A DNA stretch of 64,000 nucleotides from assembly GCA_964544145.1 (NCBI GenBank), contig CAZJAT010000003.1, positions 7,804-71,803 of the forward strand, in the 5' to 3' direction. Shown here in pieces: positions 33,550-61,042 of the stretch. Origin of the DNA: an uncultured Bacteroidales bacterium. GTDB lineage: Bacteria > Hydrothermota > 32-111. Position numbers and translations under genes: made by a program. Every line of letters begins with the position of its first letter. Position 1 is the first letter of the stretch. Under the pieces are notes generated by a model. It worked only from the letters and a program-made list of their open reading frames with translations. It had not been told where the DNA came from and searched no databases.

Positions 33550-34575
33550 TTAAGATCTCATACTAAGGCCGAGTGAAGGAACAAGCAGTGGTGCTACTTT
33601 TTCAATCTCATCAAGTGCAAAAAGGCCTTCTTTGATTTTGATTTTCTTAAAAGCATCTAGCTTTTCAACATCTGTTTCAAATCTATTTTTAAAGAAATCA
33701 ACAATACCTTTTGCATTTGAACCGCCGCCGGAAATAATAATATTATCAATTCTATCCATGTTTGTAAAGGGCAATGCTCTTTCCACATTCACTGCCAATT
33801 CGTCAAAGAATGACTGTAAGCCCTCTTCAATAATCTCCGGTGATAAATCTGCTACCTCTTCGCCTTTAAATATATTATCAATTTGTTCCTTAGTTGCTCC
33901 GGGTATTTTCTGCAGAGTTGATTTAATTGCAGTGGTAACATCCCTTGTAAATAAGTTCTGTTCTCCCTGAATAAAAGAAAGGATTGTGGTTTCATACCCT
34001 ATATGAAGCAGAGCATACATCTTATCAGGTTCTGGTTCATAGTTCATTTCAAAACAATTTTGAATTGTAAATGCGGGTACATCGACAACCACAGGTATAA
34101 GGTCAATTTCTTCAATTAAATCAATGAAAGGCATAAGAATTTCCTTCTTAGCAGCAACAAGCAGTACATCAATCTTGCCTTCTTCATCCGATGGACCCAG
34201 TATTTTGTAGTCAATCTGAACATCCTCAATACCATAAGGAATATTGTTTTCAGCTTCCTGTTTAATCAAAATTGATAATTCGGATTCTTTCATTTTGTCC
34301 ATCTTGATTTTCTTTACAATAACGCCTCTTCCCAATAGAGCAGTGCTCGTTTCCTTGATTTTAACCTCTTTTGACTGAAGCAGATTCTTAACAGTATCAA
34401 CCAATGCCAATCTGTCCATAACCTCACCGTCCGCTATAGATCCATCAGATAATTCGGTTATGCCATAATCTTTAAGCATGGGTTCATTACCGGACAAATC
34501 AAGCATTGAATACTTGATATAGGAACTGCCGATATCCAAACCCATAATCACTTTTTTCCTTTTCTTAACAGCCAT
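33550..34575 (-). CDS. pilM: type IV pilus assembly ATPase-fold protein PilM
   Basis: 341 aa with an actin-like fold. It has the N-terminal 'GLDIGSSYIKY' motif and 'IISGGGS'. Confidence 0.85.
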   Translation of the reverse strand: MAVKKRKKVIMGLDIGSSYIKYSMLDLSGNEPMLKDYGITELSDGSIADGEVMDRLALVDTVKNLLQSKEVKIKETSTALLGRGVIVKKIKMDKMKESELSILIKQEAENNIPYGIEDVQIDYKILGPSDEEGKIDVLLVAAKKEILMPFIDLIEEIDLIPVVVDVPAFTIQNCFEMNYEPEPDKMYALLHIGYETTILSFIQGEQNLFTRDVTTAIKSTLQKIPGATKEQIDNIFKGEEVADLSPEIIEEGLQSFFDELAVNVERALPFTNMDRIDNIIISGGGSNAKGIVDFFKNRFETDVEKLDAFKKIKIKEGLFALDEIEKVAPLLVPSLGLSMRS

Positions 34576-41986: not shown

Positions 41987-42498
41987 TTATGGAAAAAAAA
42001 TGGGAATTGCTTGAAAAATATTTTGATAATGAATTGAGTGAGAAAGAACAGAAGAAGCTCAATCAGTTGATGCAGAATGATGAAGAATTATATAATGAAT
42101 TCATTCAAATGCAGACCATTCACGATGATATCAAGACAATTGTACTTCCAATATTTAATAGTAAGAAAAAAGATATCTTGAATATTGTAGATTATATTCA
42201 ACCTGATAAGAAAAGGAAATTTTTATATGCATTACCAGTTTTATTTAGTTATTCTATTATTACCACACTCTTTATAATAGCTAAATTTAAAGATATAATA
42301 TTTTCATTCACATGGAATAATGCAAAGGGAATAATTGTCACCATAATGGAAATCATGTCAAAAATTTCAATCATATTTGCTGAATTGGATTTTCATACAA
42401 TGTTAATCATGTGTATGATACCTATTATGTCTGTAATTATTACTTTTAGTTCAGGTTATTTCATAAAAAAGGAAATTAATAAAGGAGGAAACAGATGA
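41983..42498 (+). CDS. putative anti-sigma factor (membrane-anchored)
   Basis: 171 aa with an N-terminal cytoplasmic helical domain (MIMEKKWELLEKYFDNELSEKEQKKL...), a TM segment and a short C-terminus. Its start overlaps the sigma stop (ATGA). Confidence 0.5.
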   Translation: MIMEKKWELLEKYFDNELSEKEQKKLNQLMQNDEELYNEFIQMQTIHDDIKTIVLPIFNSKKKDILNIVDYIQPDKKRKFLYALPVLFSYSIITTLFIIAKFKDIIFSFTWNNAKGIIVTIMEIMSKISIIFAELDFHTMLIMCMIPIMSVIITFSSGYFIKKEINKGGNR

Positions 42499-43496
42499 AA
42501 AAATATTTTATTCTGTTAATAAGCATTTTACTAATTCTTGCTTTCAGCATGGTTATCTCTGCTGATGAAATGACATTAGATGAAAGTACCGGTGACTCAG
42601 AGGATTTTTCTTTAAGCATTGACTTAGGCAGTGACTCTATCTATTCTGATGATCTTGTTTCAGTTGGAGGAAACTTAGATGTGAAAGGCACAGTTGATGG
42701 TGATGTAATAGGTATTGGCGCTCTTGTTTATATAAATGGTCATATAACAGGCGACCTTGTTTTAATTGGTTCCAGCGGAGAGATTGATTCAAATACAGTC
42801 GTTGACGGTGAATTCATAACATTAGGTTCATTTATTGATATGGATGAGAATGTTGAATTGAGCGGTCCGGTAACTCATGTCAATCTCGGTCCATTCCAGA
42901 AATTTTTTGGTTTAAAATACAAACCTTCAGCAATTCAAAAGAGTTACGCTGCAGGATCACTTATCAGTTCAATTGCAAAGTTTATTGCAATCTTTCTTCT
43001 CGGCTCTCTGGTACTGCTTTTATTTAAGAAATTCAAGAGAATTGAGGAAACTATAGTTCTTAATCCCCTTAGAGCATTTCTAATAGGATTACTTGCAGAG
43101 ATTCTTATAATACCTGCTATATTAGTTCTGACAATAAGTATAATAGGAATTCCATTCATCCCTGTTTTTATATTAATTATTTTTATCGGAGTTTTTATTG
43201 GCTCTGTTATATTAATACATATGTTAGGATCTTTCATATTCAATGAATTTAAAAAGAATGGTCTTCACTTCACAATGAATCTTCTCCTAGGTTTACTTAT
43301 TTTGTCCCTATTCCCGCTGCTCAGCAAAATAGGCATGTGGTTCAGCATAGATTGGCTTAGCAATTTATTTGGAATCATTTCCTTTATACAATGGTATATC
43401 ATAATAACATATGCTTTTGGTGTTATGGTACTAACTCGATTTGGAACGCGGATATATAATCCGAGATTGCAAATTACATCTGATTCTTCTGATTAA
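42495..43496 (+). CDS. membrane protein with N-terminal extracytoplasmic beta-helical repeat domain (DUF4097/bactofilin-like) and C-terminal multi-TM region
   Basis: 333 aa with a signal peptide and repeated 'G.v.GDv.liGs.GeI' beta-strand motifs, followed by 4-5 TM helices. It is third in the sigma/anti-sigma operon, with a GGAGG Shine-Dalgarno site. Confidence 0.45.
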   Translation: MKKYFILLISILLILAFSMVISADEMTLDESTGDSEDFSLSIDLGSDSIYSDDLVSVGGNLDVKGTVDGDVIGIGALVYINGHITGDLVLIGSSGEIDSNTVVDGEFITLGSFIDMDENVELSGPVTHVNLGPFQKFFGLKYKPSAIQKSYAAGSLISSIAKFIAIFLLGSLVLLLFKKFKRIEETIVLNPLRAFLIGLLAEILIIPAILVLTISIIGIPFIPVFILIIFIGVFIGSVILIHMLGSFIFNEFKKNGLHFTMNLLLGLLILSLFPLLSKIGMWFSIDWLSNLFGIISFIQWYIIITYAFGVMVLTRFGTRIYNPRLQITSDSSD

Positions 43497-46328: not shown

Positions 46329-47735
46329 TTATATAACTGCTTGTTTAATTTTAATATTGTTTAATGCAGATTTTTTCCATGTTCCTGTTCTATACCAAAT
46401 ATATGCAATAACTGTTATAACAAAATTGCTTATAAACATACTCCAAAAAATACCATCATGTCCCATATTAAGAACTTGGACAAATAAATAGGCAAATGGT
46501 ATACGGAACAACCATAAACGGGATATCTGCAATACAAAAACAGGAATAGTATGACCTGCACCCTGGAAAGCACCATTAAAGATAATCATTATGGAAAAGA
46601 AGAGAACCGAGTATGATGTTATTCGGAACATACTTGCACCAATATTTATAACTTCAGGATCATTAATAAAAAATTTAACAACATATTGGCCCAAAAAGAA
46701 GAGTAGTGTTGTTAGAATAAATAGAAGGACTGTATTCATTAATACAGCTGTCCATACACTCTTTTCCGCCCTTTTAAGATTCCCTGCACCAATATTTTGA
46801 GCTACCATAATACTATTTCCATTTGCTAGTCCCATAGCAGGCATTGTTAACAATGAAATTATCCTGTTACCAATCCCAAATGCAGAAACAACTCCAGACC
46901 CCAAAGTATTAACAAGCCCCATTAGCAGTGTAAATCCAAGTGCAGTCCCGGCTTGTGAGAATGAAACAGGTAATCCAATTTTTAATATACCCTTAACAAT
47001 ACGACCTTGTAATTTTAAATCGGGTAATCTTATCCTTATGCCGTATTTCCCTGTGAACAGAAAATACATGCCTATTAGTGAAGCTATGAATTGACTGATA
47101 ACTGTAGCAATTCCAGCACCCATAACTTCCATACGAGGGATTGGACCAATACCAAAGATAAGTATCGGATCAAGAATAACATTCAGGATAACTGTTAAAG
47201 CATTTACTTTCATGGGAATAACAGTATTGCCATACCCCTGCATTATACCTTGAAAAATGAAATAGCCAAAAACAAAAGGCATACCGGCAAAAGTTATCCG
47301 CATATATTGTAGAGTATATGTAAAAGCATCATCCGGAGTCTTCAATAGTATTAATATTCTATCAGCAAAAATAAAACCCGCAAGAGACAGAATAAATGCA
47401 ATAATGAAGATTATTGTGAACGTATTACCTGCAGATTTACTTACCATATCTTCATCACCGGCACCCTTGAATTGACCGATCATCGTTGTGCCACCCATTG
47501 CTAACCCACTGGCAAGTGCGAGAACTGTAAAAATAACATTAAAGGTTATTGTAGGTGCAGCTAATGCTGTTTTACCCACTTTCCCCAACCAGAAAGCATC
47601 TGTTATATTATACAATGTATGAAATAGGTTTGATATAATTATGGGAACTGACAATAAAAGAAGTGCTTTCCAAATCCTTCCCTTCAGAATATCCGGTTGT
47701 GCATTGATCATAGAATTAAATTTGGCAATCATCAA
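46329..47735 (-). CDS. MATE-family efflux transporter
   Basis: 468 aa with 12 TM helices and an N-terminal 'LLLSVPIIISNLFHTLYNITDAFWLGKVGKTALAA' MATE signature. Confidence 0.85.
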   Translation of the reverse strand: MMIAKFNSMINAQPDILKGRIWKALLLLSVPIIISNLFHTLYNITDAFWLGKVGKTALAAPTITFNVIFTVLALASGLAMGGTTMIGQFKGAGDEDMVSKSAGNTFTIIFIIAFILSLAGFIFADRILILLKTPDDAFTYTLQYMRITFAGMPFVFGYFIFQGIMQGYGNTVIPMKVNALTVILNVILDPILIFGIGPIPRMEVMGAGIATVISQFIASLIGMYFLFTGKYGIRIRLPDLKLQGRIVKGILKIGLPVSFSQAGTALGFTLLMGLVNTLGSGVVSAFGIGNRIISLLTMPAMGLANGNSIMVAQNIGAGNLKRAEKSVWTAVLMNTVLLFILTTLLFFLGQYVVKFFINDPEVINIGASMFRITSYSVLFFSIMIIFNGAFQGAGHTIPVFVLQISRLWLFRIPFAYLFVQVLNMGHDGIFWSMFISNFVITVIAYIWYRTGTWKKSALNNIKIKQAVI

Positions 47736-48421
47736 TGCACCACTAATCCCACTATTAATTCAATAATTAAGATAACCAATAATGATGGCATCATATTCAT
47801 AACCCTTATTTTACGTAGATCCAACAAATCAATCCCTAGAGCAATAAGCATCAAACCTCCAAGTGCCGTGATATCAAGGATCATTGCTTGAGATAGAAAA
47901 ACGGAAATATATGAAGAAAAAAAGGTTAATAGTCCCTGATATATAAGGAGAGGTATAATAGAGAATAGAACTCCCAATCCAAGTCCCGATGACAATACAA
48001 TTGCCGTGAATCCATCCATTACTGATTTTGAATAAAATATAGATGGATAATTTCCTGCGCCTTCTTCGAATGCACCAAGAATCGTCATAGACCCCATACA
48101 GAATATAAGAAAAGCAGTTAAGAGACCTGTAGTAAATCTTCTGTCAGCAGTTTTCCCTTTTAATTTAACGGATTCCATCCATTTATACATTCTGTCTTCC
48201 AATCTCAGCATCTCTCCAATAAGGGATCCTATTATGAATGAAATTATGATAATTAGAATATTGCTGCCTGTAATTGCATTTCTTATACCAATATAAATAG
48301 TAAACACACCAATTACTGAAAAAAACGTATTACTGAAACGTTCACTGATTTTGGATTTTATAGATAAACCTATAATGCTGCCAATAGCAACAAGTAATAC
48401 ATTAAGAATTGTCCCATTCAT
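47732..48421 (-). CDS. DUF554-family membrane protein (YqgA-like)
   Basis: 229 aa with an N-terminal 'MNGTILNVLLVAIGSIIG' segment and about 6 TM helices. Its stop overlaps the start of the MATE gene. Confidence 0.55.
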   Translation of the reverse strand: MNGTILNVLLVAIGSIIGLSIKSKISERFSNTFFSVIGVFTIYIGIRNAITGSNILIIIISFIIGSLIGEMLRLEDRMYKWMESVKLKGKTADRRFTTGLLTAFLIFCMGSMTILGAFEEGAGNYPSIFYSKSVMDGFTAIVLSSGLGLGVLFSIIPLLIYQGLLTFFSSYISVFLSQAMILDITALGGLMLIALGIDLLDLRKIRVMNMMPSLLVILIIELIVGLVVH

Positions 48422-48555
48422 AGTATATTAATATATCGTTTATTCAGTAAAGTGCAATACTTATTATTGAAAATAAAATGTTGCAGTAATAAATCAATAT
48501 AATTATCCAATATAATTTCCTTATAAAATCACTATATCCATTAATATGCTCATTA

Positions 48556-49587
48556 TCAGAACCATTTTTTCTTTTTAAAAAAAATCAGCATTCCAGAAAA
48601 AATTGATATCATTAATATCCAGATTGCAGGATATGACCATCTGTAGCTTAATTCCGGCATATAGACAAAGTTCATTCCATAAATACCTGCAACAAATGTC
48701 AATGGAATAAAAATAGTTGCAATAATGGTAAGAACTTTCATAACTGAATTCATTCTATTACTAATCTGTGTAAGGTACAAATCAAGGAGCCCTGACATTA
48801 CATCTCTAAGTGATTCTATTGTCTCGAGCAGATGAAGAGCATTGTCTGTTAGGTCCCTTATGTATAATAATGTTTTATTATCAAATCTTCTGCTTGAATT
48901 CATCTTGAGTATCATATCCCTTGTGGGCCAGAGTATCTTTTTCATTGCAATTAATTGTCTTTTCATATGATAGATACCATCTACAATATTATCTGCTGTA
49001 TCAGTAATTACCATATTTTCAATTTCTTCAGATTTCTCATCAAGATTCTGTACATATCCATAAAATGAATCAATAATAGTATCCAGAAGAATATAAAAAA
49101 GATAATCCGCTTTTACATCCCTCACTACACCAGTACTGTTACGGATCCGATCTTTCACAGCATTAAAATAATCCAGGTTCCCATCTATTAAAACAATAAC
49201 AACATTATCTTTCAGTATAAGTGATACATTCAACATCTCCGATGATATATTATGTGCGTCCCTCATACCATATGCAGATACATAGAGATATTCATTATAC
49301 TCTTCCATTTTAGCTCTCTGATTAACACTCAATATATCTTCTAGTACAAGACGGTGGATATTGAATTCCTTTCCCAATTTCTCAATAACTCCTGTATTAC
49401 AAACATTTTTCACCTCAATATAAAGCGTTTTCCCGCTATCTGCAATTTTAGACAGTTCCGTAATTTTCACATTCTCGTATTCTTTAATAGTATCTTTATC
49501 ATACTCAATGGCAGATATAATAGTAACTCCCTCCTGTGTTCCAGTGTATTCCAATGTACCGGGCGCTGTAAACACCTTTTTCTTCAT
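48556..49587 (-). CDS. corA: magnesium/cobalt transporter CorA
   Basis: The 'YGMNFVYMPE' GMN motif precedes two C-terminal TM helices. The start is taken at the internal MKKKVF; the ORF track extends to 49653. Confidence 0.85.
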   Translation of the reverse strand: MKKKVFTAPGTLEYTGTQEGVTIISAIEYDKDTIKEYENVKITELSKIADSGKTLYIEVKNVCNTGVIEKLGKEFNIHRLVLEDILSVNQRAKMEEYNEYLYVSAYGMRDAHNISSEMLNVSLILKDNVVIVLIDGNLDYFNAVKDRIRNSTGVVRDVKADYLFYILLDTIIDSFYGYVQNLDEKSEEIENMVITDTADNIVDGIYHMKRQLIAMKKILWPTRDMILKMNSSRRFDNKTLLYIRDLTDNALHLLETIESLRDVMSGLLDLYLTQISNRMNSVMKVLTIIATIFIPLTFVAGIYGMNFVYMPELSYRWSYPAIWILMISIFSGMLIFFKKKKWF

Positions 49588-49610
49588 TCCTTTCTTTTTC
49601 AATTTTCCTC

Positions 49611-50243
49611 CTAATTTCCTGCAAAACAAAGACCGATTATCTCCATATTGCAATTGCTTTCCTTAATACTTTTCATTGCAGATGTAATAGTTTTTCCTGA
49701 TGTCACAACATCATCAATAATAATAATCCTTTTTATATCAATCTTTTTTGAATTAAATCTTATGTTTCGTCTTTTTCTAAGAAATACAGGCATTTTTGCC
49801 TGCGTTATAAAACTGATTTTTTTATAAAGTAGACCATGTACAACATTCATGCCGGTTATTTCTGAAGTGAACTCTGCAAGCATTTGCCCATGATTATAGA
49901 ATCTGTTAAATCTCCTTATTCTGTCAAATGGTATATATGTAATTGATGCATCTTTTCCTATTTGCTCAATACCCGCAGCTAATATAACAGACATAAACAA
50001 ACCTGCTTCAATAAATGAATGATATTTAAAAGATTTAATTAGTAAGCCAGAGATGTCATTATACTTGCACATAAAATATATTTTATATGGCTCATCATTA
50101 TTGAATAACTGCAAATTTGGTCTTAATGCTGATGCGCATTTTCTACATAATGGAATATTATCTGACAATCTTCTATTGCCGCATTTAATGCATTGATCTT
50201 CGAATAATATACCATTAAGTAATGAAATATCACCAATATTCAT
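49611..50243 (-). CDS. comF: ComF-family phosphoribosyltransferase-domain protein
   Basis: N-terminal zinc-finger-like 'CIKCGNRRLSDNIPLCRKCASAL' and a C-terminal PRTase motif 'IIIIDDVVTSGKT'. Confidence 0.7.
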   Translation of the reverse strand: MNIGDISLLNGILFEDQCIKCGNRRLSDNIPLCRKCASALRPNLQLFNNDEPYKIYFMCKYNDISGLLIKSFKYHSFIEAGLFMSVILAAGIEQIGKDASITYIPFDRIRRFNRFYNHGQMLAEFTSEITGMNVVHGLLYKKISFITQAKMPVFLRKRRNIRFNSKKIDIKRIIIIDDVVTSGKTITSAMKSIKESNCNMEIIGLCFAGN

Positions 50244-51402
50244 ATTTGTCCACTAGGATTTTATTTATAATCCCGATTGAAACGAAGAATAGCATTATTG
50301 AGGAAGGATTAAATGAAAAGAGAGGCATTGAACAATCCCAAAAGGGAATCAAGCCTATTGCAAAACTTATATTCATGATAAAATGAATCAGAATCATTGT
50401 ACTGATGCCAATTATAATATACCTTGAATATATAATACGTATCTGCTTGTATATATATATAATCCTTATCAAAATAATCAATATGAGCAGCATCATTATC
50501 ACAAATCCCAAATACCCCGTTTCTTCTGATATAACTGAGAATATGTACATATCATCCTGTCCTGATATCATTTCCAAGCCTTTCTGAGAGCCCATAAATA
50601 ATCCTTTACCAATAAGCCCGCCGGAGCCAACTGCAATCTTTGATTGCAGGAGATTCCACCCGTAACCATGAATATTAACTGAATTTTCCTTTAAATATTC
50701 AATAATATTGGCTGCATTTCCGGTTTCCCAAGCCCAGATAAATATCGATATAATGCCGCTGATTATTGATGAAAAGAGTACTGCAGCTATTTTAATGATA
50801 CCCGTTCTCATGAAATATAATATCAGGATCAAACATATGAGAAAAAAAATCCAAATAATCGGAAAACTAAAGATAAAGATACTGATAAATATGCTTATTA
50901 TAATAATTATATTTTCTGTTTTCATATCAGCAAGATATAACAAAATAATCTCCATAAATACATATAGAAACGCATTCGACGGCTGTTTCAAATAAATGGA
51001 AATACTCACAATAATCAATGTAATGATAGTCAAAGGTGTATATATTCTGAATGAATTTATATTGTCCTTACGATTGGAAATATATCTTGATGCAAACAGA
51101 ATGTATGTTAATTTTAAAAACTGAGATGCAAACTGATGGAGCAGGACATGCTCCGGTCTTAGTATGATTGATATAATTAATACAATTAGATTAACTGAGA
51201 ATAGTATGTATGAAGAGGCAAAATGTATTTTAACAGGAACAAACTGCATGAATATCATTATAACAATACTTATTGCTATCCACATTGAATACTGCAGTAG
51301 ATTACTGTTATATCCATTTAATGAGCTCATAATTATCAATGCAAAAATAGTAAGTATTAATGCAATTACTGCCAGGATTGAATCAATGTTCATTTTTTTC
51401 AT
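50230..51402 (-). CDS. rodA: SEDS-family peptidoglycan glycosyltransferase (RodA/FtsW-like)
   Basis: 390 aa polytopic protein with 'LLQSKIAVGSGGLIGKGLFMGSQ' and 'GQDDMYIFSVISEETGYLG' matching the RodA 'GSGG...TDFIFAV..EE.G' core. It is adjacent to pbp2-mreDCB. Confidence 0.7.
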   Translation of the reverse strand: MKKMNIDSILAVIALILTIFALIIMSSLNGYNSNLLQYSMWIAISIVIMIFMQFVPVKIHFASSYILFSVNLIVLIISIILRPEHVLLHQFASQFLKLTYILFASRYISNRKDNINSFRIYTPLTIITLIIVSISIYLKQPSNAFLYVFMEIILLYLADMKTENIIIIISIFISIFIFSFPIIWIFFLICLILILYFMRTGIIKIAAVLFSSIISGIISIFIWAWETGNAANIIEYLKENSVNIHGYGWNLLQSKIAVGSGGLIGKGLFMGSQKGLEMISGQDDMYIFSVISEETGYLGFVIMMLLILIILIRIIYIYKQIRIIYSRYIIIGISTMILIHFIMNISFAIGLIPFWDCSMPLFSFNPSSIMLFFVSIGIINKILVDKYEYW

Positions 51403-53155
51403 ATAATTCCTTAATACAATAATACATTATTTTTCTTATCAAATGAGGTAAATTAAATCGTGCATTTTCCATACCCTCGATGCTTAAGGTTATAATAATA
51501 TATGGATCTTCAACCGGATAGAACATCAGCATATTATTGATACTGATATTGCGGGATTCAAACTCAGAGTATAAAGCTCCAATAGGATAATTTTCAATTC
51601 TTGCTGCAGGAATAATTGATTTATCTGAATTAACATTTTGATACATTAACATCTTAATATTATTAACAGCATCTTTATTATACATAATCTGTTTTTTAAT
51701 ACTTTCATTCTTGAATACAGTATTTCCCTTACAATCAGCTATGGAATCTATAAGTGTTGGTGTGACTTTAATCCCTCCATTGATAAATGCTGAAGCCAAC
51801 ACTGTCATCTGCAATAGAGTCATTGTAGCATCCTCTTTACCAGACATCATCTTGACAATTTCTGCATTCCCCCATTCCTTTTTCCCGTATCTTGCTGAGA
51901 AAAATTCAATATCTGGTAAAAATCCGTCAGATTCATTAAAAATATCCAATCCAGTTTTCCGATTCATATTCATTTCTTTTATATAACCTGCAAATTCGGA
52001 GAAACCCACTTTAAGAATCAATTGATCAAAGAAAATATCACAATTTTCAAGAAATGCATCGTTCATATTCAATTGCCCGTGTTCATCCCAGCATTTGAAT
52101 TCTTCATTGCCTATCAGAAGATTTCCGGTACAGGGCTGGAAAAGATCATTTGAGTCAACAATAGTTCTATCCATGGTAATATACATAGTAATTAGCCTGA
52201 ATAACAATAGAGGTGCCTTCTGAATGTCAATGCATCTGTTTATAAAAGGTGAGTTATCATTTCTCTGCAGAAAATCCCATATATCCCTCTTTATCCCATA
52301 AATAAAAATATTGGGATTGAATGACGGTTTGGAAACCATTGATAAAATACGTCCTGTTTTCGGTTCCATAATAATCATATCACATACGCTGTACTCATCC
52401 AGCAATGAATCACAGTATTGCTGGATTGTGTGATTTAATGATGTATATAAATTGTTCCCGGGCTCAGGTTTTATCGCATTATCCTCATTGATACTTCCAA
52501 TGATCCGGCCATTGATATCAATTTCATAATACTTTATTCCATTTATTCCTCTCAAATCAGAATCATAGTGTGCTTCAATTCCGGATTTGCCCGTGAAATC
52601 AAAAAAAGCATATCCCCTTTTAATTAATTCTGAATATTCTTCATTGGAAATATTACCGACATAACCTATGGGATGCGTATACAAATCCTTGAATGGATAA
52701 TATCTGAACACAGTACCTTTAATTAAAATACCGGGAAAAAGATTGGAATTTTCTTCAATCACTGAAACTGTTCTCATATCTGTATCACTCTTAAGCAATA
52801 CCTGTGATTGTCCGTATCTCTTTCCATTACTTATCAGCATACTCAGCGAGTCGATGCTCATATCTGCAAGTTCTGCAATTTCCCTTAATACAATATAATC
52901 CGGTTTTACTATGCCAATATCTAAATACAATGAATACAGTTTCCTCACCGATGCTATCTCTACGCTATCAGATGAAAACATTTTTCCTCTAGGTGCCGGT
53001 TCAATAACCATGCGTACCCTATTGCTCTCTGATAATTCCCGGTATCGCGCTCTGTTCATGATTTGATAAACAAATAGTATAACACCTATTGAAACAGTTA
53101 ATATTATCATGAAATAAAGAATGTGTCTTTCTCGGTTATTCCGAAATAATATCAT
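51383..53155 (-). CDS. mrdA: penicillin-binding protein 2 homolog lacking transpeptidase catalytic motifs (predicted pseudo-enzyme)
   Basis: 590 aa. The N-terminal TM and dimerisation domain and the 'ILSMVSKPSFNPNIF' segment align with E. coli PBP2. At the SxxK position the sequence is 'APLLLFRL' (Ser to Leu). At SxN it is 'ENCD' rather than 'ESAD'. No KTG/KSG is present in the C-terminal third. Confidence 0.65.
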   Translation of the reverse strand: MILFRNNRERHILYFMIILTVSIGVILFVYQIMNRARYRELSESNRVRMVIEPAPRGKMFSSDSVEIASVRKLYSLYLDIGIVKPDYIVLREIAELADMSIDSLSMLISNGKRYGQSQVLLKSDTDMRTVSVIEENSNLFPGILIKGTVFRYYPFKDLYTHPIGYVGNISNEEYSELIKRGYAFFDFTGKSGIEAHYDSDLRGINGIKYYEIDINGRIIGSINEDNAIKPEPGNNLYTSLNHTIQQYCDSLLDEYSVCDMIIMEPKTGRILSMVSKPSFNPNIFIYGIKRDIWDFLQRNDNSPFINRCIDIQKAPLLLFRLITMYITMDRTIVDSNDLFQPCTGNLLIGNEEFKCWDEHGQLNMNDAFLENCDIFFDQLILKVGFSEFAGYIKEMNMNRKTGLDIFNESDGFLPDIEFFSARYGKKEWGNAEIVKMMSGKEDATMTLLQMTVLASAFINGGIKVTPTLIDSIADCKGNTVFKNESIKKQIMYNKDAVNNIKMLMYQNVNSDKSIIPAARIENYPIGALYSEFESRNISINNMLMFYPVEDPYIIITLSIEGMENARFNLPHLIRKIMYYCIKELYEKNEH

Positions 53156-53645
53156 AAATATGCTCAGTAAAAATTACCTTCAAGAATCTGAGCAGCAGAT
53201 ATATCAATACTGTCAGCACGGGAGAGATGATAAGATACTTGATGGATATTATAATATCATGGCTGTTCAGAATAAATACGTATTTAAATATACTGTATAG
53301 AAAAGAAACAAAAAATATATAACTAAGTCTCAAAAGAAAATTATTTTTATAGATTATTGATTTAAATCTGATAATCATAACTATAATAATTATGAAAAAC
53401 AGAGAATGTGATCCCATTGGTGAATGAATAAATGAATCCATTATGTAACCGCACAGCATAAAAACCAATAATATATAGTATGGGTTCAGATCCATAGCCA
53501 TTATGACCAGTAAAATAATAAGCAGATATAATTCAATACCCATAAATGACAAAATCGGGGGACATGTTATGGAAAAATATATTGTAAAATAAAGTACAGC
53601 AGTATATAGAATATATATTATCAGATTCTTTTTATTTGATACCAT
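53136..53645 (-). CDS. mreD: rod shape-determining protein MreD
   Basis: 169 aa with 5-6 TM helices. Assigned from its position between mreC and pbp2. Confidence 0.5.
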   Translation of the reverse strand: MVSNKKNLIIYILYTAVLYFTIYFSITCPPILSFMGIELYLLIILLVIMAMDLNPYYILLVFMLCGYIMDSFIHSPMGSHSLFFIIIIVMIIRFKSIIYKNNFLLRLSYIFFVSFLYSIFKYVFILNSHDIIISIKYLIISPVLTVLIYLLLRFLKVIFTEHIYDIISE

Positions 53646-54439
53646 CCGACTTTCCCTATTGTTGATGGATTGTTACCATTCATTTCATTTGAATTATCAT
53701 TTAAATCACTTATTATAAAAACAAAATCAGTATTCAATGATTGGAACATATCAATAATAATAATTTCATTCTGTTCATTGGTCTCAATAGATTTCACTTG
53801 TCCGACTGGAATACTTGCAGGAAACAATTTACCTAGACCAGAAGTAAAAAGTGTATCATTTATTTTAAGGGATTTTATTTCGGCATTATCAATAATCAAT
53901 CCACCTTGTCCATTGCTTCTACCAATAAAAAACATCATTCCATTCTTATCAGTCAAGCTTATTTTGAAGTTAATATTCATATATGTTTCAATCAGTGAAT
54001 TACCCGGGTCAGATTCAATTATTTTTCCAATAATACCGTCTAAGAACATAACACCCATCTGCTTATGCACTCCATGTGCTGTTCCTTTATCAATAATCAG
54101 ATATCCATTATTATCAATCGAATTAGCTAATATCTCCGATGTTATAAGATTGTGAGCTAGATTCATTTTCAATTTTAAAATACGTCTCAATTGCTTATTT
54201 TCATTTTCGAGTGATTGCTGTCTATATAAAGCAATATTGTTATGTCCTCGCTCATTAAGTATTGCATTGAGCAAATGCTTGTTCTCAACAGCATTGGATA
54301 AGAAAGAAACACTTTTCAATATGGGAATCATTGGCATTCTGCCTGCATGTCTCAAACCTGTAAATGCTTTGTCTCCAATTATAGTTATTATAGTGGTCAG
54401 CAATAAAACAATTGTAATAATATATAGATTTCTATTCAT
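53621..54439 (-). CDS. mreC: rod shape-determining protein MreC
   Basis: 272 aa with an N-terminal TM, a coiled coil (QQSLENENKQLRRILKLK) and a C-terminal beta-rich domain with 'VVTSGLGGIFP'-like 'LFTSGLGKLFP'. Confidence 0.75.
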   Translation of the reverse strand: MNRNLYIITIVLLLTTIITIIGDKAFTGLRHAGRMPMIPILKSVSFLSNAVENKHLLNAILNERGHNNIALYRQQSLENENKQLRRILKLKMNLAHNLITSEILANSIDNNGYLIIDKGTAHGVHKQMGVMFLDGIIGKIIESDPGNSLIETYMNINFKISLTDKNGMMFFIGRSNGQGGLIIDNAEIKSLKINDTLFTSGLGKLFPASIPVGQVKSIETNEQNEIIIIDMFQSLNTDFVFIISDLNDNSNEMNGNNPSTIGKVGWYQIKRI

Positions 54440-55479
54440 TATCTGGATAATTGCATGATAATTTTTTCATGTTGTTTAATATTATCTAATATCTTGCCAC
54501 TTCCTCTGACAACACATTCCAAAGGATTTTCTGCTACTCTTACTCTGAGATTGGTTTCCTTCATAAGAAGCTGGTCAAAATTTCTCAACATTGCTCCGCC
54601 TCCTGTCATTACAATGCCGCTTTCAACAATATCAGCTGCTAATTCGGGTGGGGTTTTTTCTAATGCCTGTTTAACTGCTGTAACTATCATTCCAATTGTT
54701 TCCTTAAGAGCATCTCTGATTTCCTCAGAAGTTAATGTAATCGTTTTCGGTATTCCTTCAACAAGATCAAGTCCTCTTATTTCCAGTTTTTTTTCTTCTT
54801 TTAACTTAAAAGCACTTCCGATATCGGTTTTGATGCGCTCAGTTGTTTGTTCTCCAATAAGTAAATTGTAATTTTTCTTTACATACTGATTTATTGCCTC
54901 ATCCATTTCATCACCGCCAATTCTGATGGAATTATTTGAAACAATTCCATTCAATGCCATAACCGCAATTTCACTCGTCCCTCCTCCAATATCAATTATC
55001 ATATTACCTATAGGTTTGTGCACTGGAAGATCTACACCCACAGCAGCAGCAATAGGTTCTGCTACAAGGTAAACTTCCCTCACACCTGCATGCTCGACTG
55101 AATCCCTTACAGCTCTTGTTTCAACAGCTGTAATACCTGAAGGCACACACACAATAACCCTTGGACGCATAAGTGCTCGAGATTTCTGCACTTTAGATAT
55201 ATAGGTTCTCAACATTAATTCTACCACTTCAAAATCCGCTATTACCCCATCTTTCATGGGCCGTATTGCCTTTATCTCCTGAGGAGTTCGCCCAAGCATT
55301 TCTTTTGCCTCCTGGCCAACAGCAATTGGAGTACCCTTTTTGAGGTCAATTGCAACAACTGAAGGTTCATTCAGGACTATACCAATATCCTTCATATATA
55401 TAAGCGTTGTAGCTGTACCCAAATCTATAGCTATATCATTGGAAATAAAACTGTTGAAGAAATTCCTCATATTAAACAT
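54439..55479 (-). CDS. mreB: rod shape-determining actin homolog MreB
   Basis: 'SNDIAIDLGTATTLIY' at the N-terminus, then 'IIDIGGGTSEIAV' and 'IVMTGGGAMLRNFDQLL'. Confidence 0.9.
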   Translation of the reverse strand: MFNMRNFFNSFISNDIAIDLGTATTLIYMKDIGIVLNEPSVVAIDLKKGTPIAVGQEAKEMLGRTPQEIKAIRPMKDGVIADFEVVELMLRTYISKVQKSRALMRPRVIVCVPSGITAVETRAVRDSVEHAGVREVYLVAEPIAAAVGVDLPVHKPIGNMIIDIGGGTSEIAVMALNGIVSNNSIRIGGDEMDEAINQYVKKNYNLLIGEQTTERIKTDIGSAFKLKEEKKLEIRGLDLVEGIPKTITLTSEEIRDALKETIGMIVTAVKQALEKTPPELAADIVESGIVMTGGGAMLRNFDQLLMKETNLRVRVAENPLECVVRGSGKILDNIKQHEKIIMQLSR

Positions 55480-55561: not shown

Positions 55562-56401
55562 TTATTGAGAATATGATTTCATCAGCAGCATCATCTCTCT
55601 TGTTAATTTTGCAGCAGCAGCTGATGATATTCCCGATTTATCATGACATGGTGATAATTCTACAATATCGGAACCAATAATATTGCATTTATTGAATTGT
55701 AATAATGTATTCATCAAATCCCTAAAGCTCCATCCGTCTGCTTCCGGTGTTCCTGTTCCAGGTAAAATTGATGGATCTAAAATATCAAGGTCAATAGAAA
55801 TATATATATTTCTGGCATTGTATAATTTCTTTTCAATTATAGTTGGTACAGGAGAATACATCAGAGAATTACCTATATCATTATATTCTTCCTCTGTGAA
55901 TGATCGTTGGCCAAAACAGATAATATTATCCATTCCTAAGTGTTCTGATATTCTTTTCACTACTGAAGCATGTGAATATGGTGTATCACCATATTCCACT
56001 CTTAAATCTGCATGAGCATCAAAGACAATAAACAGTATGTCAGAAAACTTAGTATTCAACGCCTTAATAATCGGAAATGAAATTGAATGTTCACCACCCA
56101 ATGATATTATTCGCGCATTATGATCAAGTAATGTAACTAAATCACTATATATTGCATCATGTACATGCAATGTACTGCCGGGGATAATTTCCATATCTCC
56201 CGCATCTGCATATCTTATAGAGTGTATATCCTGTTTGAAATATGGTGAAAATGTTTCAAGATTCTCAGAAAAAGTCCGAATCGAATCAGGTCCTTCCCTT
56301 GATCCGCCTCTAAAGGAGCTTGTACCATCAAAAGGAATGCCCCTTATAATAATTTCAGCATTTTTTATATCATTGCTTGCTTCAAGGAATACTTTACTCA
56401 T
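55562..56401 (-). CDS. speB: agmatinase (ureohydrolase family)
   Basis: 'GGEHSISF', 'FDAHADLR' and 'SIDLDILDP' Mn-binding motifs. Confidence 0.85.
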   Translation of the reverse strand: MSKVFLEASNDIKNAEIIIRGIPFDGTSSFRGGSREGPDSIRTFSENLETFSPYFKQDIHSIRYADAGDMEIIPGSTLHVHDAIYSDLVTLLDHNARIISLGGEHSISFPIIKALNTKFSDILFIVFDAHADLRVEYGDTPYSHASVVKRISEHLGMDNIICFGQRSFTEEEYNDIGNSLMYSPVPTIIEKKLYNARNIYISIDLDILDPSILPGTGTPEADGWSFRDLMNTLLQFNKCNIIGSDIVELSPCHDKSGISSAAAAKLTREMMLLMKSYSQ

Positions 56402-57266
56402 AGATTTTTCTTACAAAATTTGGTAGCATAAATGCCGCTCTGTGAATATTTTCATTATAATATTTAAGCTTATCTGAAAATGCTGAAATTCTATTATTGT
56501 CAGTTTTATTCACATTATAATCATGATTAAATGCTATCATAAACTGCCACATTCCAGAGGGATATGTCGGTATATAAGCTAAATACGGAAAAACATATTT
56601 GAATGTTTTCTTTAGATTTCTATATATATCTGTGCATGTATTCGGATAATAATAAGGTGATTCTGCTTGAATAGTCAATATGCCTTTTTCAGTCATATGA
56701 TTAGCACAGTGAGTGTAAAATTTCTCATTGAACAAACCTTCAGCCGGACCTATTGGATCAGTCGAATCAACAATAATCAGGTCAAATTCTTCTTGTGAAT
56801 CTTCAATAAACTTGATTCCATCCCCTACTATTACCTTGCCATTTGGTTTCTCAGAGTATAACTCAGGAAAATATTTTCTGGATACATCAATAACTTCTTT
56901 GTCAATCTCAACCATCTTAACTGATTTAATTTCTCTATATTTGGTCAACTCTCTAAGCGTTCCGCAATCTCCTCCTCCTATAATCAAAGCGTTCTGCACT
57001 GAATCAATAATATTTACAGGTATATGAGTAATCATTTCATGGTATATAAATTCATCTTTCTCTGTAAGCATAATCAGATTATCCAATAGAAGCATCTTTC
57101 CGAAATCATAAGTATCCAATACAGTTATTTCCTGATAATCAGATCTGCTGTGATACAATGTCTCTTTAATCCTTAGAGTTACTCCTGAACAGTCAGTATG
57201 ATATTCGGTGAACCAAATTCCACTCGTTGATTTATTCATTTCATTTGTCATGCTTTTTACTCCCAT
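56394..57266 (-). CDS. speE: spermidine synthase
   Basis: 'ALIIGGGDCGTLRELTKY', 'VEIDKEVIDVSRKYFP' and 'DLIIVDSTDPIGPAEGLF' motifs. Confidence 0.85.
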   Translation of the reverse strand: MGVKSMTNEMNKSTSGIWFTEYHTDCSGVTLRIKETLYHSRSDYQEITVLDTYDFGKMLLLDNLIMLTEKDEFIYHEMITHIPVNIIDSVQNALIIGGGDCGTLRELTKYREIKSVKMVEIDKEVIDVSRKYFPELYSEKPNGKVIVGDGIKFIEDSQEEFDLIIVDSTDPIGPAEGLFNEKFYTHCANHMTEKGILTIQAESPYYYPNTCTDIYRNLKKTFKYVFPYLAYIPTYPSGMWQFMIAFNHDYNVNKTDNNRISAFSDKLKYYNENIHRAAFMLPNFVRKIYE

Positions 57267-57724
57267 AATACAACTGCTGAAAAAGCAGTCCCAATATGCT
57301 TGACACGGTGCTCAACTGATGATGATTTCAATGAATAATTCTTAATACCTCTAATTTTCATTGCTTCACTTGCCATGCTTCTTACAATTGATTCCACATC
57401 ACTTTTCCGTCCTCTTGATGAATATTCCATTATTACTCCGGCTTTCTCAATATCCTCAGGAAGAGCAGCGGCAACACCAGCCGCAATAACTTCACCTGTC
57501 ATATCTGAAGTAATAGATGCATAAGCCACAGGAATAAAACTTCCTTCAGGTATTCTTATAAATCTTGACGGTTTACAGAATGGAGGAATAATGGATGAAA
57601 TCTTTATCAGATTCATATTCCCTATTTTTGAATCCAGTAATGCATTGTCAAATGAATTCAATTTAGAGAATCCCTCGGCATGTCCTTTTACAGTGAAAAA
57701 TCTTTTAGGCTTAAATAGATTCAT
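57257..57724 (-). CDS. pdaD: pyruvoyl-dependent arginine decarboxylase
   Basis: 155 aa with the 'NLIKISSIIPP' Ser-Ser serinolysis site, characteristic of PdaD. Confidence 0.7.
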   Translation of the reverse strand: MNLFKPKRFFTVKGHAEGFSKLNSFDNALLDSKIGNMNLIKISSIIPPFCKPSRFIRIPEGSFIPVAYASITSDMTGEVIAAGVAAALPEDIEKAGVIMEYSSRGRKSDVESIVRSMASEAMKIRGIKNYSLKSSSVEHRVKHIGTAFSAVVLWE

Positions 57725-58122
57725 TATACTACCTCTTCGGCATTAATCGGTTTATGAGGCATTTTTTCTTCAGAATCAAATAATCCCCTTTTCATTTCCA
57801 TCATTGATGTCTCTCCAGATTTTAGCATATCCCTGAGATATTTGTATGCTACCCAAGGATCCAGTGTATCTCCACATGTATATATATCAACTGAAGCATA
57901 ACCGTATTCCGGCCATGTATGAATTGCTAAGTGGGATTCTGCGATGACGACTACACCGCTCACTCCAAAGGGATTGAAATGATGAAAGGAACTTGAAATT
58001 ACTGTTGCATTTGCTTTCTCTGCTGCATCTATCATAAGCTGTTCTATTAATGATACATTATTCAATATATCATTATCGCATTTATAAAATTCTGCTAATA
58101 CATGTTTACCTAAGGCTTGCAT
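57724..58122 (-). CDS. speH: S-adenosylmethionine decarboxylase proenzyme (class 1B, SpeH)
   Basis: 132 aa with the 'VVIAESHLAIHTWPEYGYASVDIYTCG' processing site (E-S) and core. Confidence 0.85.
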   Translation of the reverse strand: MQALGKHVLAEFYKCDNDILNNVSLIEQLMIDAAEKANATVISSSFHHFNPFGVSGVVVIAESHLAIHTWPEYGYASVDIYTCGDTLDPWVAYKYLRDMLKSGETSMMEMKRGLFDSEEKMPHKPINAEEVV

Positions 58123-58339
58123 TCTTTCACACCTCCATAGTCATGGGTTAATGGGCTTTTCATAATTTTTTTCATTCCTAAGAAACACATAATTACTCCT
58201 TATTTGTGTGAAAAAAATTATATATATTTCTATGTAAAATGCAATAGGTATCATACTTCATTACAAAGTCACGGGGAATAGTAAACTTACGGATAACTAT
58301 TATCACTATAAAGTACTTTTTGTTTAAAATGGTAATAAA

Positions 58340-60619: not shown

Positions 60620-61042
60620 CTAAAATGGTTCATTGATATTATCTTTCCAGGAATTATTAGCTTTAGTATAATATGTTTTAGAGTTTTTATCCATATGCAT
60701 TACAAAGAACCTTTTTCTCAAGAGAAAAACAGTAATTCTTATAATTGGAAATAACAAAAACTGCATAAATATTGTGAATACAAATGTGATTATTATTCTG
60801 AATACATCAATCACACTCATAAGTGCTCTATCAAGGATAATTGCCAATGATGGGATAATAATTCCTGCTATAAGAAGTATCAATGCTATGGAGAAAATAT
60901 ATAAATTCCAGTAATTATATTTTAAGTAAACAAATATTCCAGCTGCCATAATCGGAAGCACCAATTTTATGATTTTCAGTCTATCTTTAATCTTCAATGA
61001 GTTTTTCAATTGCATATTCCTCTTTAATTTTATTATTATCAT
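60620..61042 (-). CDS. hypothetical small membrane protein
   Basis: 140 aa with 3 predicted TM helices. It overlaps the 3' end of the carbamoyltransferase gene. Confidence 0.3.
   Translation of the reverse strand: MIIIKLKRNMQLKNSLKIKDRLKIIKLVLPIMAAGIFVYLKYNYWNLYIFSIALILLIAGIIIPSLAIILDRALMSVIDVFRIIITFVFTIFMQFLLFPIIRITVFLLRKRFFVMHMDKNSKTYYTKANNSWKDNINEPF

What the first reader, a model, noticed from the sequence alone, without database searches (positions are those of the whole stretch)
51383..53155. Elongasome PBP2 homolog has lost SxxK, SxN and KTG motifs and is predicted to be a catalytically dead transpeptidase
The protein aligns well with E. coli PBP2 across the N-terminal pedestal and much of the transpeptidase fold (RYYPF..THPIGYV, ILSMVSKPSFNPNIF, GKEDATMTLLQM). 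At the active-site position 'PPASTVKP' it reads 'KAPLLLFR'. At 'ESAD' it reads 'ENCD'. No K(S/T)G exists in the C-terminal third. The gene sits in an otherwise intact mreB-mreC-mreD-pbp2-rodA cluster with an apparently catalytically intact RodA (the GSGG...DDMYIFSV...EETG core is conserved). This implies a scaffold-only or allosteric PBP2, or reliance on another transpeptidase for lateral wall synthesis.
Basis: partly seen in the sequence, partly recalled or inferred. Interest (0 to 1): 0.7.

Follow-up and report, generated by a model that had tools for sequence, protein, structure and literature searches.

The report
Catalytically dead RodA–PBP2 elongasome pair

Summary
The ORF at 51383-53155 (-) is an intact 590-aa class B PBP sitting in the order mreB-mreC-mreD-pbp2-rodA. 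Its SxxK motif reads LLFR, its SxN/D motif reads NCD, and its KTG motif reads ALY. The same losses occur in all six further members of a narrow WOR-3 clade. None occur in the closest canonical relatives, nor in 148 of 148 other aligned PBP2 representatives.

The adjacent RodA has also lost its catalytic Asp (Met285), the ECL2 RW/QP, the ECL3 PD.G, the lipid-II-binding Arg and the ECL5 YGG. These losses track the dead PBP2 exactly: all seven clade genomes against none of 15 canonical genomes.

Both proteins keep their predicted folds (pLDDT 90 and 86). Both are under purifying selection (dN/dS about 0.1, as in the active sister clade), so they are pseudoenzymes and not decaying genes.

Contigs from the same samples, with matching composition, carry a complete dcw cluster with motif-intact FtsI and FtsW. 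Peptidoglycan is therefore very likely still made by other synthases.

Best reading: a co-degenerated, non-catalytic RodA*-PBP2* module retained within the MreBCD complex. I found no precedent in the literature I could search. What the module actually does is unknown.

The parts
51383..53155 (-). pbp2* : class B PBP (PBP2/MrdA) homolog, 590 aa. It has a TM helix, a conserved pedestal/head region and a transpeptidase-fold domain that lacks all catalytic motifs.
   Evidence: Of the columns conserved in canonical PBP2, 19 of 22 are kept in aa 1-255, and 24 of 53 are lost in the TP domain.
52196..52213 (-). PLLLFR (aa 315-320), at the position of the SxxK motif. The nucleophile Ser is Leu317 and the Lys is Arg320.
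   Evidence: The Lys-to-Arg change is invariant across the clade, while the Ser position varies (Leu or Met).
52037..52048 (-). ENCD (aa 370-373), at the position of the SxN/D motif. The Ser is Asn371.
51560..51583 (-). IGALYSEF (aa 525-532), on the predicted beta3 strand at the position of GKTGTA. The KTG motif is absent.
50230..51402 (-). rodA* : SEDS-family homolog, 390 aa. The fold is retained but the catalytic and substrate-binding motifs are lost.
50539..50562 (-). GQDDMYIF (aa 281-288). Met285 occupies the catalytic Asp position of canonical H-T-D-F-I-F.
   Evidence: alignment to 8tj3_B and 6bas; 115 of 117 RodA homologs have Asp here, and the two exceptions belong to this clade.
50974..51132 (-). 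Degenerate ECL2 (FASQFLK in place of RW...QPSEFAK, with the RW segment deleted) and degenerate ECL3 (LKQPSN in place of QPDLGT).
50299..50325 (-). PLFSFNPSS, in place of the ECL5 motif PLPxxSYGGSS.
50584..50667 (-). GYGWNLLQSKIAVGSGGLIGKGLFMGSQ: the ECL4 block that stays conserved. In solved complexes ECL4 is where the PBP2 pedestal contacts RodA.
   Evidence: The role of ECL4 is taken from PMC8765783.
54439..55479 (-). mreB, highly conserved (Pfam 3.7e-141; 84-90% identical within the clade).
53621..54439 (-). mreC.
53136..53645 (-). mreD. It overlaps mreC by 25 nt and pbp2* by 20 nt.
49611..50243 (-). ComF-like phosphoribosyltransferase. It overlaps rodA* by 14 nt, and its position is conserved in both the degenerate and the canonical WOR-3 operons.

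Best explanation
The mreBCD-linked SEDS-bPBP pair of this WOR-3 subclade is a co-degenerated pair of pseudoenzymes.

Shown. PBP2* cannot form an acyl-enzyme, because it has no nucleophile Ser, no SxN Ser and no KTG. RodA* lacks the proposed catalytic base (the Asp is Met here, and Ile or Glu in relatives), the donor-site Arg and the ECL2, ECL3 and ECL5 motifs. Both proteins keep their predicted folds. Both are under purifying selection as strong as in their active orthologs. They remain in an overlapping-gene operon with mreB, mreC and mreD.

Inferred. The pair persists as a non-catalytic membrane and periplasmic module of the Rod complex. The parts that are kept are the PBP2 TM helix and pedestal, and the RodA ECL4 block. 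These are the parts that mediate RodA-PBP2-MreC assembly, so the complex probably still forms on MreB. The transpeptidase-like domain, which is itself under selection, most likely serves as a binding or docking module for the cell wall or for a partner protein.

Peptidoglycan itself is made by other synthases. These are the motif-intact FtsW-FtsI pair encoded with a complete mur/dcw cluster in what is very probably the same genome, and possibly class A PBPs or L,D-transpeptidases that I could not survey.
For: - PBP2 motif loss.
- RodA motif loss.
- Co-distribution: all 7 clade genomes carry both losses, and none of 15 canonical genomes does, including the nearest canonical relative L087. A deeper relative, L090, has both proteins eroded further.
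- Fold retention: PBP2* pLDDT 89.7, TM 0.85-0.88 to PBP2 structures. RodA* pLDDT 86.1, TM 0.83 to E. coli RodA.
- Selection: dN/dS for pbp2* is 0.10-0.15 (TP domain alone 0.09-0.17) and for rodA* 0.083-0.088. The active sister clade gives 0.064-0.089 and 0.069-0.097.
- Interfaces kept: 19 of 22 conserved columns in PBP2 residues 1-255 (TM helix, pedestal and head region), and the RodA ECL4 block.
- Other synthases: a complete dcw cluster with intact FtsI and FtsW lies in the same samples as the window, with tetranucleotide r = 0.98. This repeats for L001, and in L090 the dcw cluster lies on the same contig as the degenerate operon.
- Residue roles: PMC8765783 and bioRxiv 10.64898/2026.02.13.705525.
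- Phylum context: the cultured WOR-3 isolate has complete peptidoglycan biosynthesis genes (PMC12285271).
Against: - No biochemical data exist. Inactivity is inferred from sequence.
- One subclade has Glu at the RodA catalytic position, which might retain some activity.
- The non-catalytic function itself is not shown, and nothing in the data says what the TP-like domain binds.
- For the window organism, the link between the window and the dcw contig rests on shared samples, composition and congruent phylogeny, not on a closed genome. Only in L090 are the two on the same contig.
- I could not survey the genomes for a second, active RodA-PBP2 copy, class A PBPs, L,D-transpeptidases or RodZ.
- The AlphaFold models were built from alignments dominated by canonical homologs, which biases them towards the canonical fold.
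Confidence: 0.6

Rival explanations
1. Neofunctionalisation: the pair has acquired a different biochemical activity. RodA* might act as a carrier or flippase for a lipid-linked precursor, or PBP2* might be a sensor or binder of a ligand unrelated to rod-complex scaffolding. The mre linkage would then be only historical.
For: Purifying selection acts on the whole TP-like domain and on RodA*. The Lys-to-Arg change at SxxK is invariant across the clade, and even in P0331, which hints at a retained and altered pocket. The clade has its own conserved downstream synteny with CorA, DUF554 and a MatE transporter.
Against: No new invariant polar constellation replaces the lost catalytic residues. The former catalytic positions vary within the clade: Leu or Met at the PBP2 Ser position, Met, Ile or Glu at the RodA Asp position, and ALY, ALF, ALL or GFL at the PBP2 KTG position. 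The RodA lipid-II pyrophosphate-binding Arg is lost, which argues against continued lipid II handling. The operon structure with mreBCD is strictly kept, with overlapping genes.
Confidence: 0.2
2. The proteins are still peptidoglycan synthases but use non-canonical residues, for example a register-shifted Asp283/Asp284 in RodA, or another nucleophile in PBP2.
For: The window RodA has two Asp residues directly upstream of Met285. One subclade has Glu at the catalytic position. The folds are retained.
Against: L001's RodA reads QNNIYIF, with no acidic residue in the segment at all, so a shifted Asp cannot be a general solution. In PBP2* all three motifs plus the GQG, HAWF and ENGG signatures are gone, and the Ser position is hydrophobic. 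The RodA donor-site Arg and the ECL2, ECL3 and ECL5 motifs, described as mutation-sensitive in FtsW and RodA, are also gone.
Confidence: 0.08
3. The genes are decaying relics (pseudogenisation in progress) in a lineage that no longer needs an elongasome.
For: Many conserved residues are lost. The degenerate proteins have diverged about twice as far as their active paralogs between the same two organisms: PBP2* 53% and RodA* 49.5% identity, against FtsI 75% and FtsW 77%.
Against: The ORFs are full-length in every clade genome that carries the complete gene, and in the deeper relative L090. dN/dS is 0.08-0.15, indistinguishable from active orthologs. Conservation is domain-specific and not uniform decay.
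Confidence: 0.03
4. Assembly, binning or gene-calling artefact, such as a frameshift hiding the real motif region, a chimeric contig or an alternative genetic code.
For: None found.
Against: The alignment to PBP2 is collinear from residue 16 to the C-terminus with no frame change. The identical protein appears in three independent assemblies. The same substitutions appear in independent samples. The ORFs are intact under translation table 11.
Confidence: 0.01

Closest known systems
Canonical RodA-PBP2 elongasome synthase with MreBCD (E. coli 8TJ3; T. thermophilus 6PL5/6PL6)
   Same: The gene order mreB-mreC-mreD-pbp2-rodA is the same. So are the Pfam families and the predicted folds (TM 0.83-0.88). 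The TM helix and pedestal of PBP2 and the ECL4 block of RodA, which form the assembly and activation interface, are conserved.
   Different: Both catalytic centres are gone. PBP2 lacks SxxK, SxN and KTG. RodA lacks the catalytic Asp, the donor-site Arg and the ECL2, ECL3 and ECL5 motifs.
Class B PBPs whose transpeptidase activity was removed experimentally yet which still support function (C. difficile SpoVD catalytic mutants, PMC12713402; B. subtilis PBP2b S309A, from my own knowledge)
   Same: These cases show that a bPBP can have a role that does not need its own cross-linking activity, with another PBP supplying the chemistry.
   Different: Those are engineered point mutants, and their SEDS partner stays active, so their non-catalytic role is to activate the SEDS partner. 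Here the loss is natural and ancient, covers all motifs, and the SEDS partner is dead too. SEDS activation therefore cannot be the retained function.
Degenerate LytM (dLytM) factors such as EnvC and NlpD (my own knowledge, not tested here)
   Same: This is a precedent in cell-wall biology for enzyme homologs that lost their catalytic residues and are kept as regulators or adaptors of other wall enzymes.
   Different: It is a different fold and a different reaction (a hydrolase, not a synthase). These are single proteins, not an obligate two-enzyme complex that degenerated together.
Lineages that dispensed with the elongasome altogether (cocci; polar-growing Rhizobiales; my own knowledge)
   Same: Wall growth in these lineages does not depend on RodA-PBP2 catalysis.
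   Different: Those lineages lost the genes. This one keeps mreBCD, pbp2 and rodA under selection.
FtsW-FtsI divisome pair of the same lineage (L091, L092, L094)
   Same: These are paralogous SEDS-bPBP proteins from what is very likely the same organism.
   Different: They are fully motif-intact and evolve more slowly: 75-77% identity between the window and L001 organisms, against 50-53% for the degenerate pair.

Membership tests
Class B penicillin-binding protein PBP2/MrdA (D,D-transpeptidase) | N-terminal membrane anchor plus a PBP_dimer pedestal domain | tested here: met
   Pfam PF03717, 1e-31. The model has a helix at residues 2-33. 19 of 22 conserved N-terminal columns are kept.
Class B penicillin-binding protein PBP2/MrdA (D,D-transpeptidase) | Penicilloyl-serine transferase fold in the C-terminal domain | tested here: met
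   Pfam PF00905, 1.3e-27, although only profile positions 4-236 of 299 match. Foldseek gives TM 0.85-0.88 over about 550 columns to solved PBP2 structures. This rests on a predicted model.
Class B penicillin-binding protein PBP2/MrdA (D,D-transpeptidase) | SxxK motif with the nucleophilic Ser and the general-base Lys | tested here: not met
   The sequence is LLFR, with Leu317 and Arg320. The Ser is present in 148 of 148 other aligned representatives.
Class B penicillin-binding protein PBP2/MrdA (D,D-transpeptidase) | SxN/D motif | tested here: not met
   The sequence is NCD, with Asn371 at the Ser position.
Class B penicillin-binding protein PBP2/MrdA (D,D-transpeptidase) | K(T/S)G motif on strand beta3 | tested here: not met
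   ALY sits at residues 527-529, where the multiple alignment places canonical K-T-G, on the predicted strand 526-533. There is no K[ST]G after residue 400.
Class B penicillin-binding protein PBP2/MrdA (D,D-transpeptidase) | Covalent binding of beta-lactams and cross-linking activity | not testable with these tools
   This needs a Bocillin-FL assay and a transpeptidation assay.
SEDS glycosyltransferase RodA | FTSW_RODA_SPOVE family membership and the 10-TM SEDS fold | tested here: met
   Pfam PF01098, 9.1e-33. The model has pLDDT 86.1, with TM 0.83 to 8tj3_B and 0.73-0.81 to FtsW and T. thermophilus RodA structures.
SEDS glycosyltransferase RodA | Catalytic Asp (Ec RodA D262, Tt D255, Ec FtsW D297) | tested here: not met
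   Met285 aligns to the Asp. 115 of 117 homologs have Asp here, and the two exceptions belong to this clade.
SEDS glycosyltransferase RodA | Conserved ECL2 (RW...QPSE.K), ECL3 (QPDxGT), donor-site Arg (Ec R210) and ECL5 (SYGG) cavity residues | tested here: not met
   The Trp, the QP, the PD.G, the Arg (now Ile) and the YGG are all lost. Only the Lys of ECL2 is kept.
SEDS glycosyltransferase RodA | Gene adjacent to the cognate bPBP gene, within or next to mreBCD | tested here: met
   rodA* overlaps pbp2* by 20 nt.
Pseudoenzyme (non-catalytic homolog retained by selection) | Loss of catalytic residues with retention of the fold | tested here: met
   The folds are predicted, not solved.
Pseudoenzyme (non-catalytic homolog retained by selection) | Purifying selection after the loss | tested here: met
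   dN/dS is 0.08-0.17 in the clade pairs L002, L005 and L006.
Pseudoenzyme (non-catalytic homolog retained by selection) | Experimentally shown lack of activity, plus a defined non-catalytic function | not testable with these tools
   This requires biochemistry and genetics.

The most novel reading that the evidence does not exclude
A bacterial Rod complex (MreB-MreC-MreD-RodA-PBP2) that works with no synthase activity of its own. The MreB-associated RodA*-PBP2* module would have a function independent of peptidoglycan synthesis, such as guiding or licensing the FtsW-FtsI pair or other synthases for side-wall growth, or mechanically coupling MreB to the wall. That function would be important enough to be kept for a long evolutionary time after both active sites were lost together.
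Probability: 0.4. Interest if true: 0.85.

Novelty: new variant of a known kind. Interest (0 to 1): 0.72.

Why it matters
RodA-PBP2 is regarded as the enzymatic core of the elongasome. The other components (MreB, MreC, MreD, RodZ) are usually interpreted as its positioning and activation apparatus.

A lineage that keeps the whole apparatus under selection, with both active sites destroyed, is a natural separation-of-function experiment. It implies that the assembled complex has value beyond making glycan strands and cross-links. It also offers natural variants for asking what the pedestal-ECL4-MreC interface and the transpeptidase fold do when catalysis is absent.

There is a practical point as well. 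Automated annotation calls these genes 'penicillin-binding protein 2' and 'RodA'. Metabolic reconstructions of such MAGs would therefore wrongly credit them with a working elongasome.

Tried and rejected
- Two context look-ups with my own TTG-start ORFs at the window edges found nothing, probably because the called genes use other start codons.
- I tried to link paralogs to genomes through NCBI accession series. This failed because these MAG proteins carry no accessions.
- FtsW P0374 looked like the L002-subclade ortholog. It comes from another assembly with GC 42% and tetranucleotide r = 0.64 to L002, so I did not use it. There is therefore no dcw link for the L002/L005/L006 subclade.
- A fast MAFFT run misaligned the KTG columns across 153 sequences. 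I replaced it with a regex check. That check shows a few full-length representatives with KT[SA] variants. Only P0331 and two truncated sequences lack the motif, apart from P0236, which is a fragment of this clade itself.
- dN/dS for the window against L001 is saturated at synonymous sites, so selection was measured on the closer L002/L005/L006 trio.
- Rfam found only three tRNAs in the window.
- The 64-kb window holds no mur, ftsW, ftsI, class A PBP or YkuD gene.
- Five literature searches found no description of a naturally inactive SEDS-bPBP pair. The library is open-access only, so absence there is not proof of novelty.
Full report
**1. What is at the coordinates**

The ORF at 51383-53155 (-) is uninterrupted and encodes 590 aa. 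It lies in a run of overlapping genes on the minus strand:

| Gene | Coordinates |
|---|---|
| mreB | 54439-55479 |
| mreC | 53621-54439 |
| mreD | 53136-53645 |
| pbp2 | 51383-53155 |
| rodA | 50230-51402 |
| ComF-like phosphoribosyltransferase | 49611-50243 |

The overlaps between neighbouring genes are 1-25 nt. Pfam assigns PBP_dimer (1e-31) and Transpeptidase (1.3e-27) to the ORF. The Transpeptidase match covers only profile positions 4-236 of 299. The best solved relative is E. coli MrdA (8tj3_C, 1e-52).

**2. The motif losses in PBP2 are real**

- HMMER aligns PLLLFR to E. coli PASTVK, so Ser330 becomes Leu317 and Lys333 becomes Arg320. It aligns ENCD to ESAD, so the Ser becomes Asn371.
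- Multiple alignments with canonical PBP2s from many phyla place IGALYSEF on GKTGTA. They also show loss of the GQG, HAWF and ENGG signatures.
- No K[ST]G occurs after residue 400, and no S..K sits at a conserved position.
- An AlphaFold2 model has pLDDT 89.7 and pTM 0.85. Its helix 317-329 begins at Leu317, and it has a strand at 526-533. These are the structural positions of the nucleophile and of KTG.
- The model superposes on solved PBP2 structures over about 550 columns with TM 0.85-0.88.
- A frameshift is excluded. The alignment is collinear, and the identical protein occurs in NCBI, ENA and Logan assemblies.

**3. It is a clade, not a single odd sequence**

The lineage is candidate division WOR-3. 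Seven sequences share the losses: the window, P0002/L001, P0003/L089, P0004/L002, L005, L006, and the fragment P0236. They are only 46-53% identical to the window.

The next relatives keep every motif. These are P0005/L087 at 39% identity and P0006, P0007 and L003-L010 at 37-38%.

I searched 1.84 billion cluster representatives with a profile of the clade. The result was one full-score cluster, then canonical P0005, then a steep drop in score. Among the 149 other top representatives, the Ser is present in 148 of 148 aligned sequences and the Lys in 147. The one outlier is P0331.

**4. The key correction: RodA is degenerate too**

In the HMMER alignments to E. coli RodA (8tj3_B) and to the T. 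thermophilus D255A mutant (6bas), the catalytic Asp aligns with Met285 of DDMYIF. I compared RodA from all clade loci, five canonical WOR-3/TA06 sister loci (including L087) and ten distant phyla. Every canonical RodA keeps these motifs and every clade member has lost them:

| Motif in canonical RodA | State in the degenerate clade |
|---|---|
| RW...QPSE.K (ECL2) | The window subclade has the RW segment deleted, and the QP is lost |
| QPDLGT (ECL3) | PD.G lost |
| x-T-D-F-I-F (catalytic Asp) | Asp becomes Met, Ile, Ile, Glu, Glu, Glu |
| PLPxxSYGGS (ECL5) | YGG lost |

Among 117 RodA homologs, 115 have the Asp, and the two exceptions belong to this clade.

An audit of 59 columns that are at least 85% conserved in canonical RodA gives 27 kept, 6 partly kept and 26 lost. 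The losses include the 100%-conserved Arg equivalent to E. coli R210. Published work identifies this Asp as the putative catalytic base, R48/R109/R210 as the lipid II pyrophosphate ligands, and the ECL residues as mutation-sensitive.

A register-shifted Asp is not a general rescue, because L001 reads QNNIYIF with no acidic residue in the segment. The SEDS fold is nonetheless predicted with confidence (pLDDT 86.1; TM 0.83 to 8tj3_B).

**5. These are not decaying genes**

dN/dS was measured on the closely related trio L002, L005 and L006, and on pairs from the active sister clade:

| Gene or domain | Degenerate clade | Active sister clade |
|---|---|---|
| pbp2 | 0.10-0.15 | 0.064-0.089 |
| rodA | 0.083-0.088 | 0.069-0.097 |
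| pbp2, TP domain only | 0.09-0.17 | 0.066-0.10 |

The losses are also domain-specific. Of the columns conserved in canonical PBP2, 19 of 22 are kept in residues 1-255 (TM helix, pedestal and head). In the TP domain 24 of 53 are lost, and these include every active-site element.

In RodA the retained columns cluster in the ECL4 block and in IF..EE.G. ECL4 is where the PBP2 pedestal contacts RodA.

The former catalytic positions vary among clade members. This fits release from catalytic constraint in the common ancestor, followed by drift at those positions. One exception is Lys to Arg at the SxxK position, which is invariant.

**6. Peptidoglycan is very probably still made**

The 64-kb window has no other wall synthase. 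The outlier P0331 led to locus L090 (GCA_046484245.1). L090's MreB is closer to the window's (82.7% identity) than the canonical WOR-3 sisters are (74-78%).

L090 carries speE, mreBCD, a partly degenerate pbp2, a heavily eroded rodA, the PRTase and corA. Directly next to these on the same contig lie ftsZ, ftsA, murB, murC, murG and ftsW. Its FtsW keeps the catalytic SDFIFS and SYGG.

I then searched with that FtsW. The ortholog P0373 lies in exactly the two samples that hold the window's PBP2 (Logan SRR5112540 and ENA ERZ23495300). It sits inside a complete dcw cluster: mraZ, rsmH, an ftsL-like gene, ftsI, murE, murF, mraY, murD, ftsW, murG, murC, murB, an ftsQ-like gene, ftsA and ftsZ.

Those contigs match the window in GC (34.3-34.7% against 33.6%). 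Their tetranucleotide correlation with the window is 0.98, the highest of any locus tested. Their FtsI has S273IFK, S328SN and K467TG. Their FtsW has RW, QPSE, SDFIFS and SYGGSS.

The pattern repeats for clade member L001, in sample SRR3476972/ERZ922729, with r = 0.96. All FtsW orthologs of the lineage are motif-intact.

Between the window and L001 organisms, the active proteins have diverged much less than the degenerate ones:

| Protein | Identity, window vs L001 |
|---|---|
| MreB | 90% |
| FtsZ | 86% |
| FtsW | 77% |
| FtsI | 75% |
| PBP2* | 53% |
| RodA* | 49.5% |

The only cultured WOR-3 isolate is a thin rod with a complete DAP-type peptidoglycan pathway.

**7. Interpretation**

Shown:
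- Both partners of the mre-linked SEDS-bPBP pair lack their catalytic machinery.
- The two losses are perfectly co-distributed.
- The folds are kept (predicted) and purifying selection persists.
- An intact divisome pair and an intact precursor pathway co-occur with the degenerate pair.

Inferred:
- The pair is retained as a non-catalytic module of the Rod complex.
- It still assembles through the TM helix, pedestal, ECL4 and MreC interfaces.
- Wall synthesis depends on FtsW-FtsI and possibly on other synthases.

What the TP-like domain binds, and what the module contributes, is unknown. It might recruit or guide other synthases, couple MreB to the wall, or do something else. I put 0.6 on the scaffold or regulatory-module reading. 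The rivals are a new biochemical activity (0.2), non-canonical residual catalysis (0.08), decay (0.03) and artefact (0.01).

**8. Comparison with known systems and novelty**

By homology these proteins are PBP2 and RodA. They fail the defining catalytic features of both enzyme families, so they should not be filed as a transpeptidase and a glycosyltransferase.

Functional analogues exist. Engineered transpeptidase-dead bPBPs can remain useful because they activate their SEDS partner (own knowledge). Degenerate LytM factors act as regulators of other wall enzymes (own knowledge).

I found no report of a natural, ancient, joint inactivation of a SEDS-bPBP pair that is still kept in the mre operon. 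I rate it a new variant of a known kind, with interest 0.72.

The main caveats are the absence of biochemistry, the lack of a genome-wide inventory of the other synthases, and the sample-level rather than closed-genome link between the window and the dcw contig.

Noticed in passing
L090:3275-6056 (GCA_046484245.1, JAWOBN010000032.1): P0331 is a deeper relative whose PBP2 is only partly degenerate. The Ser is kept in GSIIR, the Lys is Arg, the SxN Ser is Asn, TSGVY replaces KTGT, and there is a deletion of about 24 aa. Its RodA is eroded beyond recognition in ECL4 and gives only a faint Pfam hit. The dcw cluster sits directly next to this mre operon. This may be an earlier or parallel stage of the same degeneration.
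   Followed up: partly
window 52196-52198 (Arg320 of PBP2*): The SxxK Lys is replaced by Arg in every clade member, and in P0331 too, while the neighbouring former catalytic positions vary. A conserved Arg in a dead active site hints at a retained binding pocket.
   Followed up: partly
window PBP2* residues Cys342, Cys355, His359 (about nt 52079-52132): A C-x12-C-W-x3-H pattern is conserved in both the dead clade and most canonical relatives. From my own knowledge it resembles the zinc site described for C. difficile PBP2 and SpoVD, which appear among the PDB hits as 7rcw and 7rcz. I did not test this.
   Followed up: no
L091, L092, L094 and P0369-P0376, P0439: FtsW across WOR-3, including canonical members, has EPNIS where most SEDS proteins have QPD(L/F)GT in ECL3. 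That Asp is therefore not universally required in an otherwise intact FtsW. This slightly weakens the weight of the ECL3 loss in RodA* taken on its own.
   Followed up: partly
window 55562-58150 and L090:1-805: A polyamine biosynthesis cluster lies immediately upstream of mreB: AdoMet decarboxylase, pyruvoyl arginine decarboxylase, spermidine synthase and agmatinase. The speE-mreB adjacency is conserved in L090.
   Followed up: no
window 46329-49653 and L001:6467-9760: Downstream synteny of CorA, DUF554 and a MatE transporter is shared by the window and L001 but absent from the canonical WOR-3 loci.
   Followed up: no
window 30177-34575: A type IV pilus assembly cluster (pilM, pilN, pilO, an unknown ORF, and the PilQ secretin). 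PilQ carries an AMIN domain. From my own knowledge this domain type binds peptidoglycan, which would fit a wall being present.
   Followed up: no
window 60987-62852 versus L085:380-2169: The carbamoyltransferase gene is one 621-aa ORF in the window. In the ENA assembly of the same region it is called as two genes of 480 and 116 aa. This could be a frameshift difference between assemblies or a gene-calling difference.
   Followed up: no
window 40457-41299: An IS200-like Y1 transposase (PF01797) lies between an NADH-dehydrogenase-like cluster and an ECF sigma factor.
   Followed up: no
window 22852-25419, 7618-9331, 42495-43496: Several sizeable ORFs (855, 239, 251 and 333 aa) have no Pfam match at E <= 1e-3 or 1e-4.
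   Followed up: no
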